From Protoeuglena noctilucae (Eukaryota), in NCBI GenBank assembly GCA_958009085.1, contig OY253679.1:1-64000 (forward strand): a DNA stretch of 64,000 bases, read 5' to 3'. Shown here piece after piece: positions 3,901 through 63,850 of this stretch (the first letter of the stretch is position 1; every line of letters begins with the position of its first letter). A program made the position numbers and the translations under genes. Below the pieces are notes generated by a model. It did no database searches. It saw only the letters and a list, made by a program, of their open reading frames with translations, and was not told where the DNA came from.

Positions 3901-4778
3901 ACAGGGGAAGCGCTTCATCCTCCCCACCCGCACGCTCACCCCCCTTCACGCACACTCACCCACCCTCAACCCCCACCCCCCGCACTCTCCTCTCACCTCT
4001 CCCCGCCGGCACCAGCAGCGTCTCAAATTCCCTCTTCGTCATCGGCCCCTCGTCGGAATCGACCACCTGGAATATTGCCGCCACCTTGCACGAGACGGGC
4101 TCCCCCGTCTGTACCAGCTCCGCCCCGCCCACCACCAGCGCATAGCACAGCAGGTCGTCCCTGCGAAGTGGTTAGAGGACGTGTCAATGCGAAATACAGC
4201 CTATTGACTATAACGCATCGATTGCAGCGGTCGGAGACCGCAGCGGGCGCCGTCCGCGCGCGCAAGCGGCCCCTCCTCGCGAACGCAGCGCTCGCCTGCG
4301 CCACACAAGCGTCCCCGTCGCCCCGGAGAAGAACTGCAGCGTAGTTCCGATCGCAGCGTCTTCGTCCAGACCCTCGATGATCGCGAGGCCGTCCGCGCAG
4401 TAGAGGACGCGGCCGGTGTCGACGTCGTCCTGCAAAAGAGGGCCGGCGCGTGCGTCCGTCGCAAACGGGCGCCGCCGGGATGCGCGCCGTTACAAGCGTT
4501 CTCGGATGTGGCAACGACCGCGTCCCTATTCCCGCGGCGCCTCGCCTCGGCGATCTTCCGCAGCGTCTCGAGCTGGTTCGGGGACGTCATGCGCTCCTTG
4601 AAGAGCTGCATCTCCCGGTCCCAATCCGGCTCCTCGCCCGGACGTGTCGCCCCCTCCGCGGCCCTGCGGGCGGGGCCAGGGCGATCCCGGTCGCGCCCAT
4701 TGCGCGTGGGAGGCGCGTTCCCCCCTCTCCCGCCGCGGGGGAAGGGGCGGACACCCACGCGCGCGTCGCGGTCGCCAT
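943..4778 (-). CDS. Multi-exon, divergent F1-ATP synthase alpha-subunit-like protein (nuclear paralog); start codon uncertain
   Basis: Spliced peptides resemble F1-alpha: GRVLYCADGLAIIEGL, TGVKAVDVLAPLGKGQSLLFAGRAGAGKS (P-loop), CVYAAVGQ, GEAHRDAGGDALVVLDD, LLQRSAK..GGGSLTLVP, SITDGQV, SLSRIG. Last exon ends ..AGAGAVA* at 943. Confidence 0.85.
1128..1178. repeat. 9-bp tandem repeat (GGGTGTATT/GGGTGTACT) in the last intron of the F1-alpha-like gene
   Basis: About 5.5 alternating units read directly. Confidence 0.9.
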
Positions 4779-5292
4779 GAACGTTCCGACGCTAGCGGTT
4801 GCGTTTCTGGCCGCTGCGGCCCGGGCAGGAGCCCGTCGAATTCTGCCGGGCCCACCTTGCGACCTGGCTTGGACGCGAGCGGCGCAAGAGGGTGTATATA
4901 CATTGACGACGGACGAGGACGTTTCTAGTCACGGCCGAGAAGCGCCTCCGATCTCCGCCGCGACGCTCCGGCGCGGCTCGGGGCCTTGCCAAGCGGAAGG
5001 CCATGGCGGGCGACGGTCGGCGGGCGTGTCGGGAGATGTTTCGTCGTCGACCGTTGCGAGATTCACCGCCGCGGGCCTACGCGCGCGTGCTAGGGCTGCG
5101 GCTGGCGATGCGGGGCATCCCCGAGTCGGACAGGCTTCTATGCGAGCCAACGGCGTGCAGCGCCCACTGCACGGCACGCTCTCTATCATGCAGCATGCGC
5201 GGGATCCCGACCACGGCCGCCAGGTCGCATGTGCAGGTGCAGGGCAGGTGCAGGTGCCTGCTGCAGGTGCCCGCTGCATGCCTCAATCGCCC

Positions 5293-8200
5293 TTAATCGC
5301 CCTTCCCCGTCTCCTTCGGTCCGAGCACCCTCCGCGCGCCCCCCGGCGTCCCCGGCGAGCGATGCGGTCCCGGCGAGACCCCCGCGCCCCGCTCCCGCGC
5401 CGTCCCCGGCCCCGCAGGCCCCTCCCGCGTCCTCGCCACCACGGCCGGCGCAGTGGCCCGCGCCGGCACCGCCCCCGCCTCCTCCTTTGCGCTGTTGCGT
5501 CCCCTTTCTCCCGCCCGATCTGCGCCGGGACTCGCGGGACCCTTCCCGTCCGCCCCGGCCGCTGCGGCATCAAATGCCGCGTCCACCCACGACGGCCGCC
5601 TACGTGTGCCACCCCCAGTGACCCCCACAGCCCCAGGCACATCCGATGATTCCCGACTCTCCACTGCGCCACCACGCCCCGCACCCTCCCCCCTCGCCCC
5701 GCTCCCTCTTACTTCCCCACTGCCCCCCGCCTCCGGCCCCCGCCCCACCACCACCTTCGCAGTCACATCGGCATCTCTCTCACCCCGCCCCTGCTCTGCT
5801 TCAGTCACCACCACCCCCTCCTCGACGTCCGCACCGCCGTCCGGGCGCGGCGCGTCCCCCCCCGTGGCCCGCGAAACGTCAGTGCCCAACAGCGCCGGCT
5901 GTATGAAACGGCGCTCGAGGGAGGTGAAAGAGGGCAGGCGCCTGCGTTGGGGAGATAGAGATGGGGATTGGAATGCATATGGGGGGAAGTGTACACACGC
6001 CACCATCCGACACACCCACACCAGCACACCCACCGTCACTTGCCATGACCCACCCCACCCCCTCCCCATTCACCTGGCGACGCGTGACACGTGGCTGGAT
6101 GCCGCACGCATCGTGGCCTGCACGAACGCAGCCACGGGACCCCCCACCTCCGCATCCGCACCCCACGCACCCCCACCCGCACCCGCACCACCACCCCTCG
6201 CTCCACTCCCACCCCCACCCACACCCCCACCACCACCCCTCGCTCCACTCCCACCCCCACCAACGCTCCCAGCTCCACCGCTCCCCGACACCCTGTCTAG
6301 CACTGCTGCTCTGCGCCCCTCTGTCTGTGGCGGTGGGGATGGCCTCCCCGCATCGTTGCTGACGACGGGTGGGGAGCTGCCAAAGGACTGCGAGAAAGGG
6401 AGTGGGGTGACAGATTGTGAGTAGCGGGCATGCTGTGTTTGGTAAAGCAAACACCTTTTCACTCCATACATATCTCCACATACCAACTCAACCGCCCCCT
6501 CACCCACTCGACCGACCCTGCACCCCTCTCACCCGTCGCCAGCCCATCTAACTCAAGCACCCTCTCTCTCACCCTCACCCTGCCTGCCACCCCCATAGAT
6601 ACAGTCATCGTCCCACACCCCCACCCTCCCTCTCCCCCTCACCCGTTGCGACCCCCTCTGACCCCCATGCACACCCACCCCATTCCCGTTCCCCACCCCA
6701 TCCACCGTCATATCATCTCTCGACTCCACGACTGCCAGCTCCGATGAAGCAACGCTGGTGTCGAGGGGCAGATAGCGCGACGGCAATGCGTGGGGGGGGC
6801 TGGGGTGGGCGGGGGTGGCGCGGAGGGGGGAAGCACGCAAGCCCAACTGTGGGGGTGGGGAGGGATGGGGGAAAGGGGTTTGTTGTCTTGGTGAAGGCGA
6901 TGTGGGTGTCAAGGGTTTGTGGGAATGTGGGTGCTGTAACTGTATGCCCCTGCTCGCCTGTTCCACTGTGACGGGCACGATGCCCACGGTTGCATTGACT
7001 ATATGTGCATATATGCATACCTATATTTATACAAATACTGTATATGCACCCCCCCCCCCCCTCGCCTTCTCGACCGCCGCGTGGGACGTCCCCCCGATGA
7101 CCAGCACCGTGACGGCCGCGATGCCCATGGTGACGCTGAGGATGGCGCGGCTGGCCTCGGAGCCATTCAGATCCCGGACGGTGGAGATGGCCAGGGCGAA
7201 GGCCATGCCGCCGCGGAGGCCTGGGGGGTGGGGGGGTGGGGGTATGGGATCAATTATATAAGTATATACTATTGAATTTATGAAAGGGGGTCACGAGGAA
7301 TGAAAATTGGGATGAGGTGACGCACAAGCATTGAACCACCATTGGCTACCTAATCAACATAGCATTTCTTCCTATGCAGCTCTGACTGCAACCATCAGAT
7401 ACAACCATCCAACACCACCATCATCATGATCAAACCCAGCCATATCGCTACTACTCACATGAGAACCAGAGCATCTTCTTGTGTGCCTCCGGTATGCTCC
7501 TGTTAGCTGGCCTGGCCAGGTTGACCAGCCTCACCCCCGGCCACACATATGCAAATCTAGTTGCCAGCACGGCTGCCAGTGAAAAGACGAACAGCGCGAC
7601 GTGGTTCCACGCTAATCCGATCAAAAACATCGACACGCCCACGTACACAAACACGAACTTGTCCGCGCCCAACGCCAGGATCCTGGGGGGGGGAGACAGG
7701 GGGTATGGTGATGGTGATGGTGATAGTGGTAGGGATAGTGATGGTGACAGTGATGGTGATGGTGATAGTGATAGTAACAGTTGTAATAATAACAATAAAA
7801 ACACATGCAATGGCTCACTTGAAGAAGGCGAATGCCGCTTCCCGTGCCCCGTCCGACAGGTTCTTGACGGTGTACCTGGCCATGCCGATCCCCGTCACCA
7901 GGATAGCCACGATCCCCGACAGCTCCAGCCCCTCCGCCAGCATGTAAGCGACGTACGCCCATATGGCCAAAAGCGTCGCCTCTAACAGGTGGCCATGCTC
8001 GCTGCCTGGGGGGAGGAAAGGAGGGTGGTTGATGGGGGACTAGTTACGGAGTGCTATAATGGGGATCATTGTAATGTATTATCCATAATGTATTGCAAAG
8101 TTATTCATAAACCAATATAATTGACAATGATCACAGCTGCCATTACTTGAAATGGTAACTACAAAAAAGTACATCAAAAACATGAATACCAGCATCCAAT

Positions 8201-10139
8201 CTCACCTTCCCTGGCCCGGAACGTCCCCCACCGGAACTGCAGGGCGGAGAGCACCGCGATGGCGGCCCCGATGCCGATGGAGCCCAGGAAAGTGGTGAAG
8301 AACTCCCCCGAGGCACGGCCGATCGCGGACCAGGAGACCTCCTGAGATGAGGAGATGGGTGCGGTGGAGTGAAGTGTGACGGGTTGATGGTGAAAGAGGG
8401 AGTGAGGGAGTGAACATGTTGATTTACCACATCCGTACAAGTGTGAGTGCATGCTAGGATGTCTGATTCAGACCCATACCCTCACCTGCACGAGGAAGCG
8501 CTTGAATGCCCTGTACAGCACCATGGCCACGGCATCGTTGAGGACGCTCTCCCCAAACACCAATGCGTACATGTCCTCGTCCACTCTGGGGGGATGGGGG
8601 TGACGATGTTCATGATAATTGATATATAGTCGATATGCATAGAAAACTATTCATAAATGTAATAATCAACGTCAATTAATTATTAATTACTAATAATTAC
8701 TAATAATACATTGATAATGTGACATGCAACGCGCATCCACCACCCACCCAGCCCCCCTCGCCTGAGCATTTTGAATATGTTGAGGACGGTGACGGTGTCG
8801 GTGGCGGAGATGACGGCGCCGAAGAGCAGCGACTCGACGAATGTCAGTCGGAAGCACAGGCGCATGGCGCCCAGCAGCCACATGACGACGCCCACGCCCA
8901 CCGCAGACACTGGGGGTGGGTGGGGGGGAGGTTTGAATGGAGCGAGTAGCAATGGATACGTTACTAGTAATACACTGATTGCTGGATGTGAAGCACAAAA
9001 GCATGGCACCCAGCAGCCACACAACGACGCCCACGCCCACCACAGACACTGAGAGGAGGTTATACAGGTGCGGGTACGTAGTTACCGATGCGCTGTGAGT
9101 AGTGCTAAGCAGTTCCGTATCTAAACCAGTTGATAAAAGTAGTATTAATACTATTCATAATACCGACTGTCATCTTTGTCTCACCGAGCGTGCCCCCGAA
9201 TGCGAAGAGGAGGATGGCCCCGAAGTTGTTGCTGAAGGGGCCAGGGTCCATGGTGGAGCCGGACTCGAAGATGATGGGGGGGAGAAGGAAGAGGAAGAAG
9301 AACTGGGGGGGGTGGGGGGGGGGTATGGAGGGAGGAGGCGAGTGTTAGTAGTGATACTAGTAGTAACAGTACTAATATATGCACCATACCATGCTTATGT
9401 ATCATAACCACTAAGTTTGTTTTATTCATAATAACACACGCCAGCCATGGTCCTCAGCACCTTTCTCTCAACAGCTCTGCAAGCCTGCTTCGCAATCAAC
9501 ACCGGTCTTGCCCATGCACACTGCCCACACCGCCCCCTTTCACACCCACCGACCCTCTCACCTCCGGGCTGAAGGAGAGGAACTCCGTCTGCCTGGTCTC
9601 GCTCGCAAACGCCGCCGTGATGGCCCCGGCGACCATCCCGATGACGAGAGAGGACGAGGCTTCGGGCATGTACCGCGCGATGCGGGGCGGGAGCGCGTCG
9701 TCGATCCAGAAGCCCAGGACGATGGCCGCGAGGAGCAGAAGGAGCAGAATCATGATGCTGAAGGAAGCGATGGACTGGGGACGGAGAAAAGACGGCGAGA
9801 TGCGAGAAAGAGTGGGGGAGCGCTGGGCGGGGGCTCGTGCACGCGCAGGGCGCTGCGCAGCGGGCGGAAGCGCTCCAGATGCAAATACAGTGGCATACTA
9901 AGCGCAGTCATTGCGATATTACCGCTGTAGTCGCTAAGCCGCGCGAGTGCGGGTGGCGGGAGAGGGCGCAGCGCTGAGAGGCCGCGGGCGACGCGCGCGG
10001 GGGCGATGGCCCTCGGCGCCGCAGCGAATGCATGACAGGCCAGAGGTGATGCGCGATGGATGCGGCCGCGGGTTGGTGTGGCGCTGCGGGGGCGCGCAGG
10101 CCCATCACCAGCGCCTGAACTCGCCTCGTGGCTCTGCAT
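5293..10139 (-). CDS. NHX: Na+/H+ exchanger, CPA1 family, endosomal NHX5/6-like; multi-exon, with a long low-complexity C-terminal tail
   Basis: Exons encode FFLFLLPPIIFESG, FGAVISATDTVTVL, YALVFGESVLNDAVAMVL, AEGLELSGIVAIL and WFSGLRGGMAFALA. The first exon (MQSHE, GC donor) is tentative. Confidence 0.93.
7704..7800. repeat. Intronic (GGTGAT/AGTGAT)n then (AAT/AAC)n low-complexity repeat
   Basis: Read directly in an NHX intron. Confidence 0.8.
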
Positions 10140-10865: not shown

Positions 10866-13800
10866 TCATGCCCTGCCGTCGTTGCCCAACCCCAGGACGT
10901 GGGTGCGGTACATGCCGAGTGCCCAGATCGGGAAGATATTCCTGCGGAGGATTCAAACCGGGGACCTCTTTTGTTCTGCACTAGTTCAGAGTAGCTGATC
11001 ATGGGTTGCCACTGCCACTCCAATCCCCTCGCCTGTAGTTGGAGTAGCTGATCATGCAGTTGCGGTTGAATACCCCGATGATCTCCTGCTGCGGCCAGTC
11101 CCCGTCGCTGCACTGGGAGCGGAGGAGGAAGCGGGCGGCCGCGTCCAACGGGCGACGGTCCACGCGGTGGTAGCCGGCCTGGAGGGGGAGAGGAAGAGAG
11201 CGATGATTATAATAGATTGTGTGATAATGACATGTGCGGTTTTATGAATGGTGTCAGATAATGCGACGGTCCACGCAGCGGTAGCCGGCCAACAGTCCTG
11301 TGCATTCCCAATCCATCCCACCTCAAACACCCCATGTCATCTCATCTTACCTCCATGAGTGCCAGCATGGCCCAGGCCGTGTTGACCACGTGGCTCCTCC
11401 CGTCCGGCAGCTGCGTGTACTCCTTGTCTTGCGATGAGAGGTACGACTCGCCCCAGCCGCCGTTGTCCCTGGGGGGATGGGGGAGGGATGGGGTTAGAGG
11501 GAGTGGGTTGGAAGGGGGGAGTGGGTAGTGTTCTCTACAATCGTATCATCCACTCAGCACTCCCGTCAAAGGCCCTTTCCCCTCCCACTCCCTCACCTCT
11601 GCTTGCTGAGGAGGAAGTTGACAGCATCAACCACTTATTCACGCTCACCCCACCCCCCACTCCACTCCCTCACCTCTGCTTGCTGAGGAGGAAGTTGACC
11701 GCCTTGCGCATGTGGGCGCTGCTGTCGTAGCTGAGACCCAAAGCTGCCAGGCACGTGCACCCGAACCACCCCGCGTAGGTGAAGCACACGCCCCAGGATC
11801 CGTACCATGATCCATCGGGGCGCTGGGAAGACTCGACGAAGGCACGGCCGCGGCTGGGGGGGTGGGTACAGAGCGGGGTAAGGGTGAGTGGGGTGAGGAA
11901 GTGATTGGGGGGTGAGGGTGAGTGCGAGGGGTATACATGTCAGTGGGGTGACTGCATTGCCTTGGTATCACGTGCGTGGATTACATGATAGCAATTGCAA
12001 TAATACTGTTACCCATTAACCCCCCACTCACCGCAGCGCCGCGTGGATCTCCCTGGCCCTGTGCCTGGGGAAGCGGTCGCGGAAATAACACAGCGCCGTC
12101 ACACACGCGGTCGAGCATTCGACGTAGGAATAATCCACGATGATGTCGCCGAAGGTCTCCGCGGGGTTGAGGATCTCCAGCGCGTGGAAGGACCTGGTGT
12201 TTTCGTACGTCGCCCACCCCCCGTCCGCGTTCTGATATGACAGAATCACGTTCACGCACTCTTCCAGGCGACTGGGCGGGATGTGCTCCCCCACTTGGTC
12301 GGGCGGGTACTTGAGCATGGCCAGTGCTGCCTTGAGCCCCTCGGAGGAACAGTCGCTGATGGGCCAGCCGTGGTCTTGGGTTGAGAAGGGCCACGCGCCG
12401 TAGCTGATATGGCTGGGAGCGGAGGGGGAGAGGGGTTTTAGAGTGAGAGTGGTGATAATGAAATGTGATGGTGATAATGAGATGTGATGGTGCTATGGTC
12501 AGTGGTGGTCTTGGGTTGAGAAGGGCCACGCGCCGTAGCTGATGTGGCGTGGGGGGGGGGTGAGGTGGGGTGGGGTACAAAATAGTGTTGGTAATAACAA
12601 TAACAATAGCAGCATCTTGAGAATACTAATAATATTAATATTAAATAAATATAATGGTGGCAACACGGACTTAAATATCACTCATCAGTATTATTATTGT
12701 AATTGATGACAACAGATGCAATACATCACATATGCAACAACCGCACCCAACAACTCACCGGTACGCGTCCCTGAGGGGCTCCTGCGCCTCCGTCATGACC
12801 TGCGACCTCTCCAGGTAGGCGTGTGCCTTGCGCATCATGGGCATGAAGTGGGCAAGGATGTCGGAACCCACCGCGTCGAAAGCCTGGGGGAAGGGGGTGG
12901 GGATGTATGTATATTCAATAATATTAATATTAATAAGTATTTTTCATATGGAGGGGTGCTCAGCTGTGGCGCAGATGTAACTGGCATGGAACTGGCTTAT
13001 ACTCATTTTGATACTGTATTCGATAGCATCACGAACATGGCCCCTCGCCTGCACCGCGAATGCCGTGTCCCACAGCTGGCTGCCGTTGTATCCGGTCATC
13101 TTCAGGCCGTCCTCCGCCAGCCACAGGTAGTCTGCGTGGGCATGGTGGGTGGAACAATTACTATTATGTTTTATCGAGCGAAGTATAACGCTCACTAAGT
13201 GTGCTATCTATCTCTCTGCAAACCCTGGTAACCCCCCCACCTTGCACCCCAGGCAAGCGCTCTTCACCCACATTCAACACACCCCCCACCCACACCCCAC
13301 CCACCCACACCCCTCCCACTCACCTTGCAGCCGCGGCAGGTGTTTCTTGAACGCCAGCCCCGTGGGGTCCTCGAAGTAGCAGCAGAGCATGTTGATGACC
13401 TTGTTGACGGGGCCAATGTCGATGTAACGCGTGTTCTCGTCCTCGTAGTGCACCAGCCGCATGACCTCGGCACATGCGCGGTCGCTGGGTGGGAATGGAG
13501 AGGGGAGGGGCATTATAGCAAGAAGTAAGTAATGACGAAACAACGCTGGTGCTGTTAAGACGACTGCCGAGTGCCGCGTGCACCCAACGCATGGCAGTGT
13601 TCATCATTATTAATGTAATTACAATCATCATTACTATTAATGTCACTATCATTCCCCACCCACGCATATCCACAACTCACCGTATCCACTTGAGGGGCCC
13701 CCTCAGCAGCGGCTCCCCCACCCAGTGCAGCGTCCACCACAGCACGTCCTGCACCATGGGGTGGGGGTAATACAAATCCTCCTTGGCGCACGTGTTGCGG

Positions 13801-29538: not shown

Positions 29539-31697
29539 ATGGGCGCCCCGTGCCGGTTGCGCTGCGCCGGGGCCATCCGCGCGCGGGGAGGCCGCAACTG
29601 TCCGCGCCTGCATCGTAAGGACCACTTATTGATCCATCAGTGGTCGCGATATTCCCGCGCGACCCCCGCACGCGCTGTTACCCGCGAAACTCCCCCAGCA
29701 GCCCAAGTCCGCGTCCTTTTCGCGGCCGGCGGGACCGGCGGCCACGTCTTTCCCGCAATCGCCGGTACGAGCTTGCATCCGCACAGCTTTCCGTGCCCAT
29801 CCGGGCCCGCGAACCGCAGAATCGACGCCGCGGGGCCTGTCTGCAACGCGATGCATCCCCGCACTTACTCCCCCGCAGTGGCGCAGGCGCTGCAGCGGCT
29901 CGCTCCCGGCGCAGTTCGAGTGGACTTTGTCGGTGGCGATCGCATCGAGAGATCCGCCGTCCCCAATGCGGGCTTCCCGTTCCACCGCGTCCCTGCCCCC
30001 GCCCTGCGCCGTCCCTGGCGTTCACTCTCCAACGCCCTCCTCCCCTTCCGCCTCGCCTGGGCTCTGATAAGGCGAGAAGAATGCATTGAGCATACGATAG
30101 GTTTGCGCAGGAGCGCATGTCTGGGGAGGTGCCTAAGAGCCGCAGAGCAGTGCTATCTATCTGTAACCGGTATCCATTCCATCTCCTTCTTCCCTCAGGT
30201 GCCTAGCCCTGTCTCTTCGCTTGCGCCCCGACGTGGTGGTCGGAACGGGCGGATTTCAGTCCTTTCCTGCTTGTGTAGTGGCCGCATTGTGTGGTGTGCC
30301 CGTCGCCATTATTGAGCCCAACGCCCTGCCCGGCCTGGCCAACCGGGTCCTGTCTCGCTTCGCCAAAGTGGCATTTCTGGCATTTCCGGCGGCCGAGGCG
30401 GGGCTGCATGGGCGGTGTGGGGTACGCGTGACGGGGTGCCCTGTGAGGGAGGAGGTGGCGGCGGTGGGGGTGGGATTGGGGGGGAGGAGTGAGGGGGTGG
30501 GGGGTGGCAGGTGGGGGTTGGGAAGGGGTGGGGGGTGAGGTGGGGTGAGGGTGGCAGGGATGCGGGGTGGTGGGGGAGGGTGGCAAGCCGTCAGTTTTTT
30601 GTTCCTCAGAGTAAGAGTGCATTTCATCCATTTAATTCTATTTCCTCTCCTCTGATCTCCCACAGTCCGCATATACTCGTGCTGGGTGGGTCTCTGGGCG
30701 CCCCACGGCTGACGGAGGCGGCGGCGGGGGCGATGAGGCGACTGCAACGTCGATACCCCGATTTGCGAGCCACGGTACAGACGGGGAGGGGAAGGGGGAG
30801 GGGTGGTTTGGGTGATTTGCAAGCATCAGTGCAGGCGGGGCAGGCGGAGGGGTGGTGCGTGAATGGGGCGGGAGAGGGCACAGGTGAGTGGGAAGGGTAG
30901 TGTTGTTTGGCGTGGGCAAAGAATGGCAGGTAATGATAAGATGCGACGTCGATGGCTTAACAACCCTTGTAACCCCCCTCTTGCGCGTGCAGGGGAGGTG
31001 ATGTTTGTGGAGTTTGTCGATGATGTGGCGGGGGCGCTGCGGAAGGCGAGCCTGGCCATTTGCAGGGCGGGGGCGGTGGCGTGTGCCGAGCTGGCGTGTG
31101 CGGGTGAGAGAGTGGTGGGTGGGGTGAGTGGGTGGGGTGAGTGGGTGGGGGTTCCAAAATGCAACAAGAAAGTGGGCATGTTTTCATCTCTACACTGCAA
31201 TACCTTTGCAGGCTGCCCGTCCATTCTCGTGCCCTCCCCTCACGTCACCGACAACCACCAAGACGCGAACGCGACTGCGATGGCATCGGCAGGGGCAGCG
31301 GTGGTGGTGAACGAGGGGCCTGGGATGGAGGATGCGTTGGTGGAGGTGTGCGGGGAGTTGCTGAGCGATCCTGGTGAGGAAAGCATTGATGAAATGACGT
31401 GTGCGTGGCTGGGTGCGGATGCGGGAGCGGTGTTGTGTGTGCGCAGATCGATGACTCATGCCCAATGACAGTCATGCTATCTTATCAACAGTCACTATAC
31501 TTATCACTCGCCTCTCTCACTCCCCCTCAGCCCGCCTCTCCGCCATGTCGCATCGTGCTCTGGCGGCCGCGCGGCCCAAAGCGGCGCTCGACATCGCGGA
31601 GGCGGTGCTGGAGATGGCGGGGCGGGAGACTGGCAGTCGGGGTAATACTGGTAATATCGGTGATCCTGGTGATTGGAGTGGTGTCGTTACGGCTTGA
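29539..31697 (+). CDS. murG: MurG (lipid I N-acetylglucosaminyltransferase, GT28), intron-containing, with an Arg/Ala-rich N-terminal extension
   Basis: AAGGTGGHVFPAIA, RPDVVVGTGGFQSFP, IEPNALPGLANR, LVLGGSLGA, QTG, EFVDD, CRAGA..AEL..G.PSILVPSPHVTDNHQDANA. Introns restore the frame. Confidence 0.95.
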
Positions 31698-52031: not shown

Positions 52032-55000
52032 ATGGTGAAGGGATCCTCCTCCGTGCCGCTCGTCAACGGCCTCCCGATGAAGGTGCGGGCGCGCGGTGCG
52101 CGGCTGGACCCCTTGCGCGCACGGGGGTCCGCGGGGGGCGGCCCGCGGGCGGCGCGGACCCCGTGGCGCGCCCCCTGGCGGGCGTCCCCCCTTTGGCCTG
52201 CGGGGCCCGCGCGCGCGTCGCAGCTCCCCGCCGCGCCCTCCGCCCCCGCGACGCGCTTCTCGTTCACATTCTCTCGCACGTGATGCCACGCAGACCGGGG
52301 CCTGGGATGCGGACGAGGACGAGAAGCTCGCATCGTATCAAAAGCTGTACGGCAACAAGTGGTCCGTGGTGGCGCAGTTCATCCCCGGGAGGCAAGTTTT
52401 GGCTGTATAATGCATGTATCTTGCTAGTATCATCGGATGCGCGCGTGGAGAGGCGTTCGCGGGGTCGGGAGCGACGCCAGGGTTTGCTGCATATGGTGCC
52501 CGCAGGACCGGGCAGCAGTGCGCGCAGCGTTGGCGCCACAAGGTGAATCCGAACATCAAGAAGGACAAGTGGACGCCGGAGGAGGACGCCCTGCTGACGC
52601 AGCTGGTGGCGGAGCACGGCAACCGGTGGGCGGAGATTGCGAGGCACATGGACGGCCGCACCGACCAGCAGTGCATGGGGCGGTGGACGAGGCACCTGGA
52701 CCCCAACATATCCCGGTGAGGGACATTTGAGTCGGGAATGAGGAGTAAGTGGGTGGAGGGCCACACATGTTGTGCCGGCATGGGTGCACGGGCGCGCATG
52801 GGGGGCAATGGAACGGGGGCGCATTGAGGGTGCATGACGGGGCATGCGTTCAACACTGCGCCTCTCCTTTACCCACCCCAACCACTCCCCTTTCCACCCC
52901 CTCCCTCCCTTACCCACTAACTCACCCCCCTCCCTCACCCCACCCCCCCGCAGCGAGACCTGGCGCCCCGAGGAGGACGCCCTGCTCATCTCATTACACG
53001 ATCAGCACGGCACCCACTGGTCGCGCATCTCCAAGAGCCTCCAGGGACGCACCGCACAGCAGTGCCGGGCGCGGTTCTTCCAGATCCGGGGTCCCGGGGC
53101 GGCGGGGGAGGTGGACGGGGAGGGGAAAGGGAGAGGCGAGGGGGGCGGCGGGGGTGGGAGGGGGCGGGTTGGCAAGCGGCGCAGCCGGGCGGGGGACGAC
53201 GGGGAGCTCGAGTCGGACCCGGAGTTCGAGGTGAGGGGGGATTTGAAAATGGGAATGCGGAGTGGGAATTTGGATGTGGGATTTGAGTGGAGTGTGTGCG
53301 AGTCGGCTCCCCTCACAGCCACCTCGCTGTCACTCCCTTCCTCACCCCCACCCCCCCTACCCCTGTAGTACCTGGGCAGCTACCGTCCCCACCCATGCGC
53401 TGCCATCTCCCTCACACCATCACCCCCACTTCCCACCCCCACCGCAGCACCTGGGCAGCTACCGCCCCCGCTCCTCCCGCCGCGCCGTGGTGCCCCGCCG
53501 CAGCATCGGCGACGCCGCGCCCTCCCGCCCGGCCCCCGAGGCACTGCCCCCCGCGCCAGAGCCGGTGCCAGAGCCGGCGGTGCCAGAGGCTGCGGTGTCG
53601 GGGCCGGGGCGGGGGTCGGTCGGGGGCAGGAAGGGGCGAGAGGAGGGGGAGGGGGCGAGGGGGAGGGAGGGGCGTGGGGGCAAAGAGAAGGGGGAGGGGG
53701 GGAGGAGGGGGCTGGTGGCAGAGGTGGCGGGTGCGCCGTTGCAGGTGCGTGCGGGTGGGGGTTAAGGGTGTTTGTGGGATATGCGGAAATGGGGTTGTAA
53801 GTGGGTTGTGTGCGTGTGAGGGGCTGGGGGTGTAGATGTTTGGATGGGTTACAACGTGGATGTGTGGACTGGGCCGCGAGTGCGTGCGTGCAGCCGCCCA
53901 CCCTTTCCCGCCCCCCCCGCCCGCAGCCCCTCCACCCCAACCACCCCATCCCCACGCCCGGCCTCCCCGTCAAGCCGCAGCCCCACCGCCCCAGCCGCAC
54001 CACCGCCCCGCCCCACCCCCACCCCCACCGCGCACCCCCCGCCGGCACCCACACGGCCGGCGGGGGTTCAAACCCCGGCGGTGGCCCGAACGGCACCAGC
54101 AATTCGAACATGAACTCGAGTTTGAATGGTCCGCACCCCGGCGGCGCGATGCGGGGCGGTTGGGCGCCCCGTCCCCTCGTGAGGTCGGCGTCGGGGGTCT
54201 CTGCGGGGGAGGGCGCGGGTCTGATCGAGGCGCTGCTGACGTCGCCGGCCAAGGCGGCCGCGCTGCCGCTGGTGAGTGATGGATGGGGGTGTGTCGATGA
54301 TAGATGATGGCTTGGTCTGCTGATTGAGGCCGTGATGGGGGGCGATGGTCGGGGTGGCTGCGCTGCCGCGGGCAAATGGCGTGCATCTTAATATAACTCC
54401 ACTCTGTGATTGCGTGTTTGCAGTTCGCCCCGTCCACCAGCACGGCCGACAACACCCCCACCAAGCTCCTCTCGACCCACAGCCTGTCGCCCTTCCCGGG
54501 AAGGGACAACGCAGGCGAGCAATTAGCATGGGGGGAGATGCGAACCGGCACGCGATGTTCTAGCGTGGTTTGTATAATTGAGAAGCACTCCAGCGTCCAT
54601 GCCTGCTTGAGAGTCCATCCCGCACTCACCCACACCCTGTATCCCCACTCACTCACCCACCACCTTCACCCCCACCCCCACCCACTCAACCCGCCCCCTC
54701 TCTCTCCCGCTCGCAGCCGCCCCCACGGCCCCAGGCGCCCTCCCTCCCCTCCTATTCGGCCTCACCCCCGCCCGCCGCCACCCCAACGCGCGCCACCCCC
54801 CCTCGGCCGCCCCGACCTGGCGGGGCCTTCTCTCCCCCGGAGCAAACGCCTCCGCGTTCGCATCGCCGGCGACGGCAGACCGGCGACTGGCCGTTGACCT
54901 GGCATGCCCCTCGTCCGCCCCCGACTTGCGACCCCCGATGCTGCCGAATGCCACGCCCATCTGCGGGGCGCTGGGGGACGCGCCGGCGCTGGGAGAGGCC

Positions 55001-55843
55001 ACGCCGGACCTCTTCTACCCCCGATCCGAGCCCAGGCGGCTCCGGGACTGGGGTGGGGCGGCGGCAGCCACCACGCCCAATGCGGGTGGCGGTGTGGGGG
55101 GTAACACGGGGGTGCATGCGGCGGGGGTGGGGGTGGGTACGGTGGCTGAGGGGCCAGGGGTGGCATCGTCGCCGGTGCTGGGATCGGGGAGGAGCGCTGG
55201 GACGGAGGATACGGTGGCGGTGGGGCGGGCGCGGGGGGCGGGGCGTGAGAGGGGCAGCGTGGGGACCGGGGTGACGCCGGGGGTGGGGAAGAGGAGGTGA
55301 GAGTTGGCGGAAGGGAGGTATTTGGGCGTGGGGTGTGTTGTTGGGTGGTTTCAGGGGAGTGGTTGTTCTAATGGGTGTGATGGTGGAGGTGTGTCTTGTG
55401 CACCGCCTTTCTGTCTCTCTCTCCACCCTTCTCTTGCCTCATCTTTTCACGTATCTAATCTGTCCCTCCCCTCCCCCTGCAGGAGCGCGGCTGCCCCCAA
55501 GGCCCCGCACCCGGAGCCCTTCAGCCCCTTCGCCACCGCGGGGTCGGGCAGGGCCACGCAGCCCCACGAGGCGAGTGGCATCATTCATCATTCATAATGA
55601 TTGTCAACGTTGATAACACCATAGATATGTCATAGTGATTGCGACGCGATGTCGTGGTGGCTATCACTGCCGCTCATGCGTATTACTGTACCACACCGCC
55701 CCGCTACCCTCCGCCACTCTCACTCCCCACTCCACCGCCACCTGCAGGCCAGCCCCTTCGCCGACCAGCTCCCCACCATGCCCCGCTCGGCCGCCCCCGC
55801 CACCCCCAAAGCGCGACTCATCAACGCACTGGAGCGGTGCTGA
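52032..55843 (+). CDS. Three-repeat MYB transcription factor
   Basis: Repeats WDADEDEKL..NKWSVVAQFIPGRTGQQCAQRW, WTPEEDALL..NRWAEIA..GRTDQQCMGRW and WRPEEDALL..HWSRIS..GRTAQQCRARF, followed by low-complexity exons ending ..ALERC*. Confidence 0.9.
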
Positions 55844-56827: not shown

Positions 56828-57703
56828 CGTGTTGTCCTTCCCGCAAGACACGGACTGCACCGCCCCCCCAACGTCGATGGGGGGAAGCAACGACCCCATC
56901 TCCCCCTCGTTGTCGCCACGGTCCACCTGGTCACCCTGCAAAATATTGTGGGGAGCAAGGAATTTACGATATCTACACACATACACACAGAAGCGAACCC
57001 ACCTGCCCCACCCCCACTCCCCCCTCCCCCCCGTCATCCCGTAACATACAAATCCAAAGCCCACCTGCCCCAGTCCCCCGAACAGGTTCGCTCCCCAGCA
57101 CTTGAGCACGCCCCCTTTGAGAATGGCGCATGTGTGACGGAAACCAGCGCAGACGTCCACCGCCCAATTGTCGAGGATCACGCGGGGCAACGCGCTGCCC
57201 ATCTGCCCCGCCTGGCTGCCGCGCTCGTAGCGGTCGCCCAAGCCCAGCTGCGGGTGGGGAACGTGGGGGGAAGCGATCGCGGGAGATGCAAACACAACCT
57301 GCGGTTGCGATGCCATCCCCGGCTTGATTAACACGCGCGGTCCTCGCCTGACCGTATCGGTTGTTGCCCCAGCATTTGATCGTGCCCGTCGAGAAGACCA
57401 CGCAGTTGTGGCCGGCTCCTGCGGGCCGGGAGAGGCCGCGTCGCTCAACTTGCAGCTCCGCGCATCCGAGCAACGAAGCGGGGCTGCCGACGTGCTCATA
57501 CGTTGTGCATAGGCTGATATGCGACGCTGATGCAGCGATGCAGCAAAATGATCGTATAACGCCCGGGGAGGGCGCAGTTGTGCGTGCAGCAAAGCCGCAC
57601 CTGCCGCGAGCGCGGTGATGGTCGCCATGCCCCCGCGCGCCGCTCCACATGTCAGCCAGAGACAGAGGAGACCGACGGCCACGACGGTCGACGCCCGAGC
57701 CAT
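56828..57703 (-). CDS. RCC1-repeat protein with N-terminal signal-peptide-like segment (5' part; interrupted by the gap)
   Basis: MARASTVVAVGLLCLWLTCGAARG, GHNCVVFSTGTIKCWGNNRYGQ|LGLG, VCAGFRHTCAILKGGVLKCWGANLFGGLGQ and VQSVSCGKDNT. Confidence 0.85.
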
Positions 57704-58388: not shown

Positions 58389-61300
58389 TCAGTGCAGCTT
58401 GCGCAGCTCCCATCCCCCGGCTCCGTCCGTCAGCCGCAGCTCCGTCTCGTGGAAACGCACCAGGGCTGCGGGGCATGGCGTGACATGGGAGAGCGGCATT
58501 GAGGGAAACTGTGTAGTCGTAAAAATCTTAATACATGGAGCTATAGTGCACTACGTGTGGGACACTAACCGCACCATACCCACATGCACCACACCCCACC
58601 CCCATCTGTGCTCACCCGTCCGCTGCGTGATGGTGACGAGCGTGATGCCCCGATCGGTGGCCAGCTGGTACAGGTGCTCCTCGACATCCACGGAAGTCGC
58701 GTTGGTGCACTCGTCCAATATCGCGAACCGCGGCTTGTGGAAGAACAGCCTCGCCATGCCCAGGCGCTGCTGCTCCCCCAGCGACAGCGTCTCGCCCCAC
58801 TCCACCTCCTCGTCCCAGCTGTACCGCTCCGCCAAATGCCGCAGCCGCACGTCGCCCATCAGCTCCCCCAGCCTCGCGTCCAGTGCGGCGCGTGCCGTGC
58901 GCCTGTCCTGGTTGGGCGCGACCCAGTCCGCGGCCTCGTCGGCGGTCAGCGGATAGACCAGCTGCTCACGCAGGGTGCCTGGGGTGGTGTAGGGCTTCTG
59001 GGGGACGAAGAAGAGCTCGCGGTGCAGGCCGCGGTGGGTCTGGGGCGTTGGAGAGGAGAGAGAGGGGTCATTTGCAATTCTAACTGTCTGAGATGGTGCT
59101 CAAATTAATGGATGCATTAATCAATGACTCGTAAGTCAATCATCAACACCAGTCACCTCTGGCTTGACCAGGTGCCCCGACACGAGCGGCCACAGCCCCG
59201 CCAGCACCCGCACGATGCCCGTCTTGCCCGACCCATTGGGGCCCGTGATCAGCGCCCCCTCGCCCTGCCGCACCGCGAGCGTCAGCTTGCGCGCCAGGAC
59301 ATTGCCGGTCGGGGTAACCACGGTCACGTCGCTGAGGCCGACGGAGGGGCCGGCGGTGGCGGTGGGGGCGGAGATGGTGAGGGCGGTGGCGGAGCGCTGG
59401 GGGCGGGGGAGAGGAAGTGGGTTGGTGGGTTACTGTGGTATTGTATAGTTTACAGATATCTAACGGTATTTATCACGAGAGTGTCACGCTCGCCCACAGC
59501 CACCCGCAGCGCAGCACCCGAGTCATGCTAGATCAGCGAAAATAATCATCAAACACTCAACAATAACAGTAACAATAATGACAATAATAACATAACAGCG
59601 ATCCTCGCCTTCATGGCCGTGGACGCCCTCGCGGCCGACCGGAGCGCGTCCCTCAGCTGCGCCACCCGCGCCACCCCCCCCGACATCTCCACGAGTCGCT
59701 TGTGCAGCGAGAGCACTTCCCCGAAGGCGATGAACGTGTTGGTGACGATGCTGGCCAGATAGCGCATGTTGTGCACCATCTCCGCCTGCACGCGGCTGCT
59801 GCCCCGGTCGCCCTCGTACGCGAGCGCGTAGAGCTGGGGGGGGTGTGGTTGGGGTGAGGGAGGTTAGTTATTGTTATTATATGTGATTACACTTAATGTA
59901 ATCATGTTACGCATTGTTGGCATCGAACGCCAACGAGTAGAGTTAGGGGGAGAGTGGTGAAGAACTCGTCGGCCACACCCACAGTCATTGACTACTACTT
60001 ACTATCAAACACTATCAACAATCTTATAATCACTCACCAGGGTGAGCAGCCAGGTGACGTTGTGGGGCAGCTGCCGGGTGAAGAACTCGTCGGCCACCCC
60101 GTGCGCCCACCGGGTCGTGGCGGTTTGGCTCAAGTGGCGCATGTACCGCGAGAAGTGGTCCTCGATCGCGGAACCCTCGCGGGGGCCACCACCAAAGAAG
60201 GCCACGCTCTCGGCGTTGGTCCTGGGGTGGGAAGGGAAGAGGGGGGTTGTGGAATTAGTTGCTATGATAGCGACTTACCAGCCATTTGAAATTGTTGAGA
60301 GTTCGGTTATCAATAGTCGTATCCGCCCTCCCACTCACCTGAGCCGCGCGTGCATGTTGCGGAACACCCCCTCCAGCGCCGCCTCTTTTGCTGCCATGAG
60401 ACCGAAATCAGGCGTCACGGCTTTGAGTGCGCCCAGGCCCAGCAGCATGTAGAGGTACGCGAGCGAGAGGCCGCGGGTGCCTGCGATGGGGGGGGGGGGA
60501 TAAGGGGATTGGTATTGTTTTTATATATAGTGTTTGTCATGTAGAGGTACGCCGGGAGAGGCCGCGGTAGACGACAACCACGCGACGTCAAACTACCAAC
60601 TACGCATCTGTCTACTGTTCTTATGACATAATATAACATCTAATAATCCACCGACTCACCGGTGAGCATCCACATGCGGGAGGAGAACCACACGATGTCC
60701 ACCACGGGCTTGACCATGGTGGGTATCAAAGAAGCCGCGTCGTTGCAGAGCCTCTCCACATCCCTCACAATGCGCTGGTCGGCGTCGCGCATGCCGGCGA
60801 TGTTGGACGCGAGGTACAGGTTGTTGCCGGAGAAGTACTGGGGGAAGTTAAGAAAGAGATGGTTGGTTGAAAGGGCTGTTCTACTTATTCTCATTATTAG
60901 TTAGTATTATTATTGACACTGTTACAATCCATTATAACTATCAATGCTGTTATTATATACATCTGTAAATTTATAATAGTCCCTCACCCCCTGCGCGAGA
61001 TCCGAGGTGATCCTCCTCCTCCACGACAGCGCGAGGGAGTCGCGGAGATTATCACCTGCCTTTGTTATAATTGCATTTGTAATTCCATAATCATCATATA
61101 TAATGATATATAACCCCTCACCCTCTGCGCCAGATCGGCCGTGATGCGCCTCCTCCACGACAGCGCGAGCGAATCACTGAGGTACTTGAGGCTCTGGGCC
61201 ATGATCGCAGAGAGCATCGACTGAAACACCGACACGCCCATGAGTCGCCGGAACCGGGGCAGGTCCTGCCGCAGCACGTAGTGCACCGTCATGCCGTTCA

Positions 61301-63850
61301 AATTGGCAATGCGGTCCTGCAATGCCGTGCGCAGCACCACCACCACGCCGATCAGGGCCTGGGTGGGGAAGAGGTTGGGGAGATGGTATTATGATCTCGT
61401 AGAGTGATAACTATGATGATCGTAATAGTAATGAATGACAGTGTGGCACCTTTACGTCATCCAACCACCACCCTATCCCACCCCCCACCAGCTCCACCAC
61501 CCCACCGACCACCAGTCAATCATCCCACCCCCACTCACGAGCCTCCGCCACTCCCCCGCCCCCCCACCCCCCACCAGCTCCAAGAAACGCCCCACCGCGC
61601 CCCACGTCGTCAGCCCCGCCCCCACCACCCCCATGCCCGCCTCCCGCGCTCTCTTCGCAAGCTCCGCGTCTTTTTCACTCCCCTCCTTATCCGCAGGAGC
61701 CCTCGCGATCACCTCACCCCCCACCACCCCACCCGCACCCGCACCCGCACCCGCGCCCTCCCCGCTCCCCTTCCCACCCCTCGCCATCCCCTGCAGCACC
61801 TCCAGAGCGTGTTTGGCTCTCTCATTATCCCCGCCCTTCCCACCCCCGCTCTCACCCTTACTCACACCCTCCCCACCCGCACCACCACCGCCCCCCACCA
61901 CCCCACCCGACCTCGCGTCGTGCAACGACCACCCCCCCTCCCCATCCAGATGCAGCACGATATCGTGGAAAGCCATCAGCGCCGGGCGGTGCGAGATCGT
62001 GACGCACGTGCACCCCATCTCCTTGACGGTCTTTGCGAACCGCTCCTCCATGTCGTTAGTCACCCCGGACGTGCACTCGTCCAATATCGCGAACCGCGGC
62101 TTGTGGAAGAACAGCCTCGCCATGCCCAAACGCTGCTGCTCCCCCAGAGACAGCGCCTCGCCCCAATCTACCACGTCCCTCCGCCAATCGCCCCGGTCAA
62201 GCAAAGGTGACAGATCCACTTGGGCGAGCAACGCGCGCACGTCGCTCTCGTCCACCCTGGCGTCCCCGGCTCTCGCGGGGTAAACCAATTGCTCCTCCAA
62301 TGTCCCGATCGATACATAGGGGCGCTGGGGGACATAAAAGATATCGGCGGCAAGCCCGCCGTCCCCACCGGCCCCCGGCTTGCGCACCACTCCCTGCGTC
62401 AGGGGCCACAGTCCGCCCAATACGCGGAAAAGCGACGACTTGCCGGCTCCGTTGGGCCCCGTGACGAGGAGGTGGGTGCCCCTTGGGACGCTCAAGGTGA
62501 GGTCGCGGACGAGGGGGTTGCCGGAGGGGGTGAGGACCATGGCACGGTCGAAGGAGATCTCGTCCTGAGGGTAAGAAGCGAAGGAATGCGCTCATATATA
62601 TAATTGGCGTCGTTTTGGTATCACTAGGTGCGATCTATGTGAGCACCATGGCGCGGTCGAAGGAGATCTCGTCCTGAATGACCAAGGGAGAGTGAGTAGC
62701 TGTAGTGTGGCTGAAATATGATATAAACTATAACTGCAACACGGTTGGTAATCATGCAACCACTCGCCTGCGACGACTCCACCACGCCCGTCGGCGCCTG
62801 CATCAGCGCTGTACATCAATGCCATCTACACGAACACCTTAACAATACTAAACCAATACATAAACAATACATACCATCACTATAACCCACCCACCCCCTC
62901 GCCTGTGATGACTCCACGACGCCCGTCGGCGCCTGCATGAGCGCCCGCATCCGCTCGGCCTCCGTCGCCCCCGATTCTGGCGTTTCAGGGGTCCCCGACC
63001 CCGGCAGGGAGACGTGGGACTGGCCGGCCGAGCCTAACTCGCGGATCACGCGCTCCATCTCGTGCACCCTGCAGGGAAGGGGGGTGGATGGAAATGATGC
63101 AATGTTATCTTTGTGATGCAAGCAGTTTGTCTTATTTTAAGTATTATAATAATAAACATGATTGGCAGATAGAATAGCAACAATAGATGGAATAGCGGAA
63201 CGCGCATGTAGTGGCACCTCACTACCATAACAATAAAAATAACAGGAAATGATTATTACGATACTACTACCAATGCACGAACATCCCTCGCCTGTCCGCG
63301 TGCGCGCTGAGCTTCATGAGCTTCCGTGGCGACGCCGCGAGCGTGCCCATGGACTGGAAGAGCGTGATGATGACGCCCGTGTGGTATCGCATGTTGGAAA
63401 GCATCTCGGCACGGCCACGGGCGGTGGCTTCGGGTCTGGAGAGGAGGGGGGGGGGTTGAAATGAAAGGGCTGGGTTAGATGGGATGGGGTTATTGGTCAG
63501 TGAGACGTACTGGTTCTCACCCTGCCTCCTCGCCTAAAGTGCCCGTAACAGGCAACATTGATAATAACGATAGTGACAACTAAACAATAACAGACTCGCC
63601 TGAGGTGCCCGGAGAAGAAGGGCCCGATGACGAGGATGACGGCCGCGGTGGCCCCCAGGTATTTCAAAAAAAAGTCCTGCACCATCCCGAACCGCCACTG
63701 CGTCCGCTGCACAGCGGCCACCTGGGAGGTCGCGGCATCGAATCCCCGCGACACCGTGCGGCTCTCTTTTCCCATGCCGCCGTACAGGGCCACCGACTCG
63801 GCGTTGGCGCGCAGGCGCGAGTGCAATGCGCGGTACGTGCCCTCCAGGGA
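58389..63850 (-). CDS. Full-size peroxisomal ABC transporter, subfamily D (PXA1/COMATOSE-like); 5' end lies beyond the window
   Basis: [23 protein letters not shown] (EAA motif), NBD1 [37 protein letters not shown], a second TMD ([19 protein letters not shown]) and NBD2 [17 protein letters not shown]. Stop at 58389. Confidence 0.95.

What the first reader, a model, noticed from the sequence alone, without database searches (positions are those of the whole stretch)
4294..63599. Very high frequency of GC-AG introns, always after an exon-terminal AG
Seen: about 19 inferred donors read AG|GCGAG or AG|GCAAG, at 4295, 4545, 7065, 8761, 10124, 11032, 13048, 26774, 28144, 30072, 35748, 52392, 54515, 55571, 57347, 59608, 62902, 63291 and 63599. 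Several are fixed by conserved protein context (KMLR|VDED, SNYR|NIFP, IPGR|TGQQC, RYGQ|LGLG, GHLR|PE, ADR|VHE). That is roughly a fifth of about 100 introns here, against about 1% in most studied eukaryotes. Inference: relaxed recognition of +2, compensated by exonic AG pairing with U1.
Basis: partly seen in the sequence, partly recalled or inferred. Interest (0 to 1): 0.7.

Follow-up and report, generated by a model that had tools for sequence, protein, structure and literature searches.

The report
Frequent GC-AG introns, marine green alga
Roughly one intron in six in this stretch of a GC-rich marine green alga starts with GC instead of the usual GT, which is real but has been reported before in a few other GC-rich marine algae.

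Summary
The observation largely holds. The heptamer AG|GC(G/A)AG is present at all 19 named places. AGGCGAG occurs 29 times against 10.75 +/- 2.95 expected, 22 sense and 3 antisense to the genes.

- Spliced metatranscriptome contigs remove two of the claimed introns exactly at GC...AG (10942-11032 and 12884-13048), and stop at the exon edge beside a third (7065).
- Protein homology or Pfam coordinates fix six more: 4295, 4545, 8761, 52392, 63291, 63599.
- Six rest only on my own gene parser.
- Four (10124, 30072, 35748, 57347) are unsupported.

In a set not chosen by motif, 6 of 34 introns are GC-AG (18%, CI 7-35%). The parser gives 15 credible GC of 107.

The idea of compensation by flanking U1 complementarity fits the data. 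A relaxed reading of +2 is untested: no snRNA gene lies in the window and no genome is held.

High GC-donor shares are already published for Emiliania huxleyi (~50%), Aureococcus (40%) and Micromonas pusilla (22-26%). This alga has no close named relative in the collections searched and is not Micromonas by its donor consensus. It is therefore a new member of a known kind.

Side finding: 14 of 104 introns carry an internal copy of their own splice junction (control 0 of 624).

The parts
10942..11032 (-). GC-AG intron in the oxidosqualene cyclase gene (claimed donor 11032)
   Evidence: RNA joint in runs X1, X2 and X4. GC...AG is the only canonical reading within the 4-letter ambiguity.
12884..13048 (-). 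GC-AG intron in the oxidosqualene cyclase gene (claimed donor 13048)
   Evidence: RNA joint in X1, X2 and X4. GC...AG is the only canonical reading within the 5-letter ambiguity.
6847..7065 (-). GC donor at 7065 in the Na/H exchanger gene; acceptor uncertain
   Evidence: The parser keeps the donor at a 0.1% GC prior. The acceptor at 6847 is a parser call only.
8586..8761 (-). GC-AG intron in the Na/H exchanger gene (claimed donor 8761)
   Evidence: The flanking exons match Pfam Na_H_Exchanger profile positions 87-126 and 131-161, continuous to within one residue. The parser keeps it at a 0.1% prior.
4161..4295 (-). GC-AG intron in the divergent ATP-synthase-alpha-like gene (claimed donor 4295)
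   Evidence: Against orthologues P0242, P0244 and P0241: GC 233.3, best GT 207.7. The join aligns without a gap at the junction. The parser keeps it at a 0.1% prior.
4430..4545 (-). GC-AG intron in the same gene (claimed donor 4545)
   Evidence: Against orthologues: GC 210.0, best GT 197.5, and another GC at 4551 scores 206.0. Forcing it in the parser costs 0.2 nats and uses the same acceptor.
52392..52505 (+). GC-AG intron (GCAAG) inside a Myb repeat (claimed donor 52392)
   Evidence: The upstream exon ends at Myb_DNA-binding profile position 32 of 46, and the next repeat starts at residue 19 of the downstream exon. The parser keeps it at a 5% prior but not at 1%.
63436..63599 (-). GC-AG intron in the ABCD transporter gene (claimed donor 63599)
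   Evidence: Against 8 homologues: GC 272.4, best GT 262.0. The parser keeps it at a 0.1% prior.
63069..63291 (-). GC-AG intron in the ABCD transporter gene (claimed donor 63291)
   Evidence: Three-exon search against 4 homologues: 352.2 with GC, 340.8 for the best GT first donor. Also kept by the parser.
62565..62902 (-). Probable GC-AG intron in the ABCD gene (claimed donor 62902), holding an inner copy of its own junction with a second GC donor at 62767
   Evidence: It is the top model, but homology does not discriminate: 352.2 against 345.5 for a poor GT. Kept by the parser. Junction copies.
59397..59608 (-). Probable GC-AG intron in the ABCD gene (claimed donor 59608)
   Evidence: Parser only, kept at a 0.1% prior. 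Homology is tied among several donors in a variable linker.
26774..26892 (+). Probable GC-AG intron (claimed donor 26774)
   Evidence: Parser only, kept at a 0.1% prior. No Pfam match on the flanking exons. The exhaustive search gave only generic WD40 hits.
28144..28305 (+). Probable GC-AG intron (claimed donor 28144)
   Evidence: Parser only, kept at a 0.1% prior. No Pfam match.
54515..54716 (+). Probable GC-AG intron in the low-complexity tail of the Myb gene (claimed donor 54515)
   Evidence: Parser only, kept at a 0.1% prior.
55571..55747 (+). Probable GC-AG intron in the same gene (claimed donor 55571)
   Evidence: Parser only, kept at a 0.1% prior.
9775..10124 (-). Claimed donor 10124: motif only, not supported
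   Evidence: Lies between the cyclase stop and the exchanger start. Forcing it costs 20.7 nats. It could be a 5' UTR intron.
30072..30198 (+). Claimed donor 30072: motif only, not supported
   Evidence: Forcing it costs 6.0 nats.
35748..35946 (+). Claimed donor 35748 upstream of the dynein gene: motif only, not supported
   Evidence: Forcing it costs 10.5 nats. Dynein homology starts only at about 35975.
57248..57347 (-). Claimed donor 57347: motif only, not supported
   Evidence: Forcing it costs 9.2 nats. It lies beyond the C-terminus of the ABCD gene.

Best explanation
These are ordinary U2-type spliceosomal introns of a GC-rich marine green alga in which the second intron base is C instead of T. 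About 12-20% of introns here are of this kind. Shown: the introns are removed from RNA at GC...AG, and they sit in unrelated genes on both strands. Inferred: in a genome under strong pressure towards G+C, T-to-C changes at +2 persist only in donors whose other positions (exon AG, +3 purine, +4 A, +5 G) already pair fully with the 5' end of U1. The lost pair at +2 is then affordable. This is the usual compensation seen in GC-AG introns elsewhere, occurring at a much higher rate. No special machinery needs to be assumed.
For: - RNA joints at 10942-11032 and 12884-13048 in three runs, and an exon edge at 7066 in two runs.
- Homology or Pfam continuity at 4295, 4545, 8761, 52392, 63291 and 63599.
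- Motif-blind tally of 6 GC in 34 introns.
- AGGCGAG 29 against 10.75 expected, 22 sense and 3 antisense.
- All 15 credible GC donors are AG|GCRAG. In that context T:C is 30:15, and no GC donor in a weaker context has support.
- GC donors have more U1-complementary flanking positions than GT donors.
- The window is 62.4% G+C.
- GC introns look like other introns in length (median 162 against 182) and composition, and are not a repeat family within the window: 3 weak pairs among 107 introns.
- Precedent: GC-donor shares of 22-26% in M. pusilla, 39.6% in Aureococcus and about 50-55% in E. huxleyi, linked by the authors to high genomic G+C (PMC3033335, PMC4815162, PMC7779022; passages read).
Against: - Only 2 introns have full RNA joints, and 18 joints of the same call were not shown.
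- Six sites rest on a parser whose donor matrix rewards the same flanks.
- The compensation tests are biased, because the candidate GC sites were chosen by motif.
- High G+C alone does not explain the trait. Micromonas RCC299 at 64% G+C has only 1.5-2.7% GC donors, so something lineage-specific is likely.
- A C share of 33% in the best context is far above what strong human or plant donors show. That leaves room for a changed reading of +2.
Confidence: 0.55

Rival explanations
1. The spliceosome of this lineage has lost much of its discrimination at +2, through a protein or RNA-modification change in U1 snRNP, U6 or PRP8. T and C are then nearly equivalent once the flanks pair.
For: C makes up 15 of 45 donors in the AG|GYRAG context, against about 1% GC-AG overall in most eukaryotes (PMC3033335). 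G+C content alone fails as an explanation in Micromonas RCC299. Iwata and Gotoh proposed protein components or base modification, because U1 is canonical in the GC-rich algae they examined.
Against: No GC donor outside the strongest context is supported. T is still twice as common as C in that context. None of the machinery could be examined: no genome is held and no snRNA is in the window.
Confidence: 0.3
2. The GC donors are inherited copies. They belong to a proliferating introner family whose source element carried GC, as in Micromonas pusilla, where 43.5% of introner introns have GC donors against 9.7% of regular introns.
For: Precedent in M. pusilla, Aureococcus and Pelagomonas (PMC4815162; PMC3879977; preprint 10.1101/2021.10.25.465678). 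7 of the 15 GC donors share the 8-letter start GCGAGGGG. Intron lengths of about 90-340 bases overlap those of introners.
Against: An all-against-all comparison of the 107 introns of the window gave 3 weak pairs and no family. GT donors share the same extended G-rich consensus: GGG at +6..+8 in 11 of 30 GT against 7 of 15 GC, p = 0.54. Only 64 kb was examined, so a dispersed family could be missed.
Confidence: 0.1
3. The class is an artefact of inference. The motif is common in coding sequence, and true splicing uses nearby GT sites.
For: Four of the 19 sites have no support. The DNA-like run X3 covers 4545 and 10124 without a joint. High-G+C sequence has many open frames that can mislead manual reconstruction.
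Against: RNA joints leave no GT option. Homology prefers GC by 10-26 score units at four sites. The motif is enriched and strand-biased. X3 shows no joints at all, not even at introns that the other three runs splice, so it says nothing about splicing.
Confidence: 0.05

Closest known systems
GC splice donors of Micromonas pusilla CCMP1545 (van Baren et al. 2016, PMC4815162; Iwata and Gotoh 2011, PMC3033335; Verhelst et al. 2013, PMC3879977)
   Same: A marine green flagellate with a GC-rich genome. A fifth to a quarter of donors are GC, confirmed by transcripts, preceded by exon AG, with a normal AG acceptor.
   Different: In M. pusilla most GC donors (79%) lie in one repetitive introner family, and the donor consensus is AG|GYGCGT. 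Here the consensus is AG|GYGAGG, and the GC introns show no family within the window. The proteins here have no close Micromonas match among the listed hits. Intron density is far higher: the parser gives 19 exons for the cyclase gene, against fewer than 3 exons per spliced gene in Micromonas.
Aureococcus anophagefferens, Pelagomonas calceolata and Emiliania huxleyi GC donors (PMC3033335; preprint 10.1101/2021.10.25.465678; PMC7779022)
   Same: GC-rich marine picoalgae with 40-55% GC donors (Aureococcus, E. huxleyi), or with GC donors on introners (Pelagomonas). The acceptor is canonical.
   Different: They are unrelated lineages (a pelagophyte stramenopile and a haptophyte) with higher shares. 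In the pelagophytes the GC donors are tied to introners with inverted terminal repeats.
GC-AG introns of animals and land plants (about 1%)
   Same: U2-type, with a stronger consensus at the other donor positions than in GT introns. This is recalled textbook knowledge; of PMC3167603 I saw only the start of the abstract in the search listing.
   Different: The frequency here is 10 to 20 times higher.
Intron gain by tandem duplication of an AGGT-containing segment (Hellsten et al. 2011, PMC3265369; potato RdRp case, PMC4974935; Drosophila cases, PMC2891723; search listings and starts of abstracts only)
   Same: This relates to the side finding. A duplicated exon-intron junction yields two copies of a splice site, and the mRNA stays unchanged when the outer sites are used.
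   Different: Here the copy lies inside a longer, already existing intron. It is separated from the original by an unrelated 32-88 base spacer, and it recurs in 14 of 104 introns.

Membership tests
U2-type GC-AG spliceosomal introns | The segment is absent from mature RNA, with flanks joined exactly | tested here: met
   Met for 2 introns by joints in 3 runs, and an exon edge for a third. The other 16 claimed sites have no RNA read-out visible to me.
U2-type GC-AG spliceosomal introns | GC at the first two and AG at the last two intron positions | tested here: met
   for the RNA introns. for the homology- and parser-defined ones.
U2-type GC-AG spliceosomal introns | The donor otherwise fits the U1-complementary consensus, more strongly than GT donors do | tested here: met
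   15 of 15 credible GC donors are AG|GCRAG. Mean of 5.80 against 4.93 matching positions, p = 1.7e-4. The candidate choice was biased by motif.
U2-type GC-AG spliceosomal introns | Pyrimidine-rich tract and YAG acceptor | tested here: met
   All 15 end in CAG, 8 of them with long C-rich runs (listing).
U12-type (minor) introns | Donor of the RTATCCTT type with a matching branch site | tested here: not met
   The donors read GCGAG or GCAAG. The U12 donor motif is recalled. The ATATCC consensus is quoted in PMC3033335.
Introner elements carrying GC donors (Micromonas / pelagophyte type) | Introns form a family of near-identical copies | tested here: inconclusive
   No family among the 107 introns of this 64 kb window. 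The genome as a whole could not be searched.
Introner elements carrying GC donors (Micromonas / pelagophyte type) | Short target-site duplications (3-9 bp) and/or terminal inverted repeats | not tested
   I did not look for these in the GC introns. The 20-57 base junction copies found in other introns are much longer than published duplications.
Algal genomes with abundant GC donors | GC donors far above about 1% with transcript support, in a genome of high G+C | tested here: met
   2 of 17 by RNA and 6 of 34 by RNA plus homology. The window is 62.4% G+C. Only one 64 kb window was examined.

The most novel reading that the evidence does not exclude
In this alga the GC donors sit in ordinary, non-repetitive introns, and C reaches a third of all donors in the best flanking context. 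If that holds genome-wide, the trait is a property of the splicing machinery itself and not a legacy of one spreading element, as it largely is in Micromonas pusilla. The alga would then be a clean natural system for finding what reads intron position +2. The frequent inner copies of splice junctions (14 of 104 introns) may belong to the same picture: a lineage with active intron remodelling, in which outer sites are reliably chosen over intact inner duplicates.
Probability: 0.25. Interest if true: 0.6.

Novelty: new member of a known kind. Interest (0 to 1): 0.35.

Why it matters
Gene predictors that demand GT donors will misbuild a sizeable share of genes in this organism. This happened with the first Micromonas pusilla annotation (5.9% GC donors in the initial models against 25.6% with RNA evidence; PMC4815162). 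Biologically, it adds a green-algal lineage with a different donor consensus, and apparently without introner involvement, to the short list of organisms in which GC donors are common. That list is what any comparative search for the cause must draw on: Iwata and Gotoh called the origin 'an enigma'. The phenomenon itself is not new.

Tried and rejected
- Whole genome: none is held. U1, U5, U6, U1C and PRP8 could therefore not be inspected, and an Rfam scan of the window found nothing.
I used ORF references instead.
The part beside it was laid.
- Run X3 covers intron sequence, including 4545 and 10124, without any joint. It shows no joints anywhere, so I do not read it as evidence on splicing.
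- Homology could not decide 62902 and 59608, which lie in variable linkers. It could not decide 35748 either, because dynein similarity starts downstream.
- Metagenome scan with the long ABCD exon: 7 loci, best 70% identity, no transcript of this organism. The relatives' genes in L001-L004 lack these introns, so GT/GC switching at shared positions could not be tested.
- Exhaustive profile search with a WD40-like exon: one self-hit and generic repeat hits, no orthologue for 26774 or 28144.
- Pfam on 21 flanking exons: informative for 2 junctions only.
- Earlier notes of this scan: none for this genome. The 8 notes shown of 12 found by words concern Ostreococcus GT introns and did not bear on this finding.
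- Huff et al. 2016 is not held. What I say of it is recalled.
- A G-run after the donor as an extra compensating element: no difference between GC and GT donors.
- The parser's 9 off-consensus GC donors, and its mini-exons at 62797-62768, 11605-11597 and elsewhere, are rejected as artefacts of junction copies or weak models.
Full report
WHAT THE WINDOW IS. The window has 62.4% G+C and begins with about 40 copies of CCCTAA at 2-244, so it is a chromosome end. Pfam on 145 ORFs chosen by third-position G+C gave the gene map:
- a divergent ATP-synthase-alpha-like gene at about 1-4.6 kb (-)
- a Na/H exchanger at about 5.6-9.8 kb (-)
- an oxidosqualene cyclase at about 10.9-16.5 kb (-)
- a JmjC gene at about 17-18.6 kb (-)
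- WD40-like genes at 20-29 kb (+)
- an axonemal dynein heavy chain at 35.8-51.6 kb (+), with one exon of 7 kb
- a three-repeat Myb gene at 52-55.8 kb (+)
- a fused ABCD transporter at 58.4-64 kb (-)

Homologues of the ABCD exon are all green plants and green algae at 46-74% identity. Apart from the window's own ORF, the best dynein hits are unnamed proteins at 55-56%; the best named ones are Chloropicon, Haematococcus and Tetraselmis at about 55%. The alpha-like ATPase has orthologues in a pedinophyte and a trebouxiophyte. I read this as a marine green flagellate with no close named relative in the collections. The donor consensus AG|GYGAGG differs from the AG|GTGCGT of Micromonas (PMC3879977).

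THE MOTIF. All 19 coordinates carry AGGCGAG or AGGCAAG. AGGCGAG occurs 29 times against 10.75 +/- 2.95 in 100 shuffles, none reaching 29. AGGTGAG occurs 43 times against 7.37 +/- 3.01. Of the 25 AGGCGAG copies inside my strand domains, 22 are sense to the genes (p = 1.6e-4).

RNA. One search found four marine metatranscriptome runs holding 15-28% of the sampled words of window 3001-13000, as exon-only transcripts would. They were laid on window 300-20299. Three of them gave 15 listed joints, and 18 more were not shown. Resolved against the sequence, 13 are GT-AG. Two, 10942-11032 and 12884-13048, can only be read as GC-AG, both cag|GCGAGGGG. Contig pieces in two runs stop exactly at 7066, beside the claimed donor 7065. 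Contig arithmetic adds two more GT introns, 17395-17603 and 14805-15029. RNA alone therefore gives 2 GC of 17. The fourth run (X3) shows no joints at all and covers introns, so it behaves like DNA or unspliced RNA.

HOMOLOGY AND PROFILES. I scored every in-frame GT or GC donor with every AG acceptor near each exon pair against homologues, treating both donor types alike.
- ABCD gene: 63599 (272.4 against 262.0 for the best GT) and 63291 (352.2 against 340.8) come out as GC. Six junctions are clearly GT. 62902 and 59608 lie in variable linkers and are not decided.
- Alpha-like ATPase gene: 4295 (233.3 against 207.7) and 4545 (210.0 against 197.5) are GC. The three-exon join aligns to the pedinophyte orthologue over 133 residues with one single-residue gap. 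Two further junctions are GT.
- Dynein gene: five junctions are clearly GT and one is ambiguous.
- Pfam coordinates run continuously across 52392 (Myb profile 2-32, then the split codon, with the next repeat at the right spacing) and across 8761 (Na/H exchanger 87-126, then 131-161).

Taking RNA introns and homology-clear junctions together, without regard to motif, 6 of 34 are GC-AG (18%, CI 7-35%; p = 4.7e-6 against 1.3%).

MODEL-BASED TALLY. I wrote a small parser. It uses a 3-periodic coding model from the giant dynein exons, an intron model and splice matrices from the 15 RNA introns (retrained twice), and explicit intron candidates of 50-1200 bases.
- In its first pass the parser recovered 11 of the 15 RNA introns exactly. 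Two of the four misses (11469-11673 and 13849-14091) were split at an internal junction copy, one (2828-3057) got another donor, and one (16154-16460) lies upstream of the predicted start.
- In the correct-strand domains it finds 107-111 introns.
- Thirteen claimed GC donors survive even a 0.1% prior on GC, and 52392 survives 5%.
- 4545 costs 0.2 nats when forced. 10124, 35748, 57347 and 30072 cost 20.7, 10.5, 9.2 and 6.0, and lie outside predicted coding sequence.
- After curation: 107 introns, 83 GT and 24 GC. Of the GC, 15 are AG|GCRAG and 9 are off-consensus calls without any support.
This tally is not independent of the motif, since the donor matrix rewards the same flanks.

HOW IT LIKELY WORKS. 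Every supported GC donor has exon AG and +3 purine, +4 A, +5 G. In that context the donors split 30 T to 15 C. Outside it there are 53 T and only the 9 doubtful C. GC donors match the U1-pairing consensus at more of the other seven positions. This is the classical compensation picture. It argues that +2 is still read, with C affordable only when the rest pairs. Why the rate is so high is open:
- High G+C pressure is the published suggestion. It fails for Micromonas RCC299.
- U1 is canonical in the algae examined by Iwata and Gotoh.
- The introner route that explains most GC donors of M. pusilla finds no support in this window. It cannot be excluded without the genome.

WHAT IS KNOWN.
- Iwata and Gotoh 2011: GC-AG shares of 39.6% (Aureococcus), 22.2% (M. 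pusilla), 7.7% (Chlorella sp.), 2.7% (Micromonas RCC299) and 1.3% overall (passages).
- van Baren et al. 2016: 25.6% in M. pusilla with RNA-seq, and 50% cited for E. huxleyi (passages).
- The PhycoCosm paper: about 55% for E. huxleyi (passage).
- The Pelagomonas preprint: GT and GC donors on introners (passage).
- Gozashti et al. 2022: introner families with 0-50% GC donors and target duplications of 3-9 bp (passages).
I read no supplementary files. I found no paper on this organism, which I cannot name. The finding is therefore a new member of a known kind.

SIDE FINDING. Of 208 own-boundary windows (104 introns), 15 have a good copy inside the same intron, against 0 of 624 when the windows are paired with other introns.
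- Fourteen introns are affected, five of them RNA-confirmed.
- The anatomy is constant. The exon tail plus the first 8-12 intron bases, including the donor, is followed by a C-poor spacer of 32-88 bases. Then comes a 20-57 base copy at 85-100% identity, then 105-280 bases to the acceptor. Mirror-image cases occur at acceptors.
- Similarity stops right after the copy, so these are not whole-unit tandem repeats.
- RNA shows that the outer site is used.
- Because the copied exon tails mostly end in AG, an inner copy could itself serve as an acceptor, and any order of splicing would restore the same mRNA. This last point is my inference and is not tested.
- I found nothing equivalent in the passages and listings I saw.

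VERDICT. The share is about 12-18%. The compensation idea fits the data, and the 'relaxed +2' idea is untested. The phenomenon is already known from other GC-rich marine algae.

Noticed in passing
Window-wide. Examples: 11469-11673(-), 13849-14091(-), 15194-15459(-), 23686-23905(+), 38304-38577(+), 50242-50610(+), 62565-62902(-): 14 of 104 introns hold an internal direct copy (20-57 bases, 85-100% identical) of their own exon-intron junction, including the splice site, 57-138 bases away. The control is 0 of 624. A C-poor spacer of 32-88 bases lies between original and copy. The outer site is the one used in RNA. The origin is unexplained, and the copies are much longer than published introner target duplications.
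   Followed up: partly
window 2-244: About 40 copies of CCCTAA (the TTAGGG-type telomere repeat) open the window, so this is a chromosome end. The first predicted gene ends within about 600 bases of it.
   Followed up: no
window 35788-51579 (+): The axonemal dynein heavy chain gene has a single 7005-base open exon frame (42856-49860) and about 12 introns in 12.5 kb of coding sequence. The neighbouring cyclase gene has about 18 introns in 2.4 kb. Intron density is very uneven between neighbours.
   Followed up: no
window about 800-4650 (-): This is a divergent ATP-synthase-alpha-like P-loop protein, about 30% identical to solved alpha subunits. The word-indexed search found only five relatives, among them a pedinophyte and a trebouxiophyte. 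Its function is unknown.
   Followed up: partly
window 16964 (-): A contig of run X2 ends here with a run of T before it on the + strand. That is a poly(A) tail marking the 3' end of the minus-strand JmjC transcript (table 7).
   Followed up: no
window 56560-56759: A run of 200 N marks an assembly gap inside the region between the Myb and ABCD genes.
   Followed up: no
L001-L004 (metagenome contigs, 62-74% G+C): ABCD genes of uncultured relatives (58-70% identical) are almost intron-free where the window's gene has about 15 introns.
   Followed up: partly
window 300-20299, run X3: One of the four metatranscriptome runs covers this locus with 138 short contigs, mostly 95-99% identical and with no spliced joints. 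It may be DNA or unspliced RNA of a slightly different strain.
   Followed up: no
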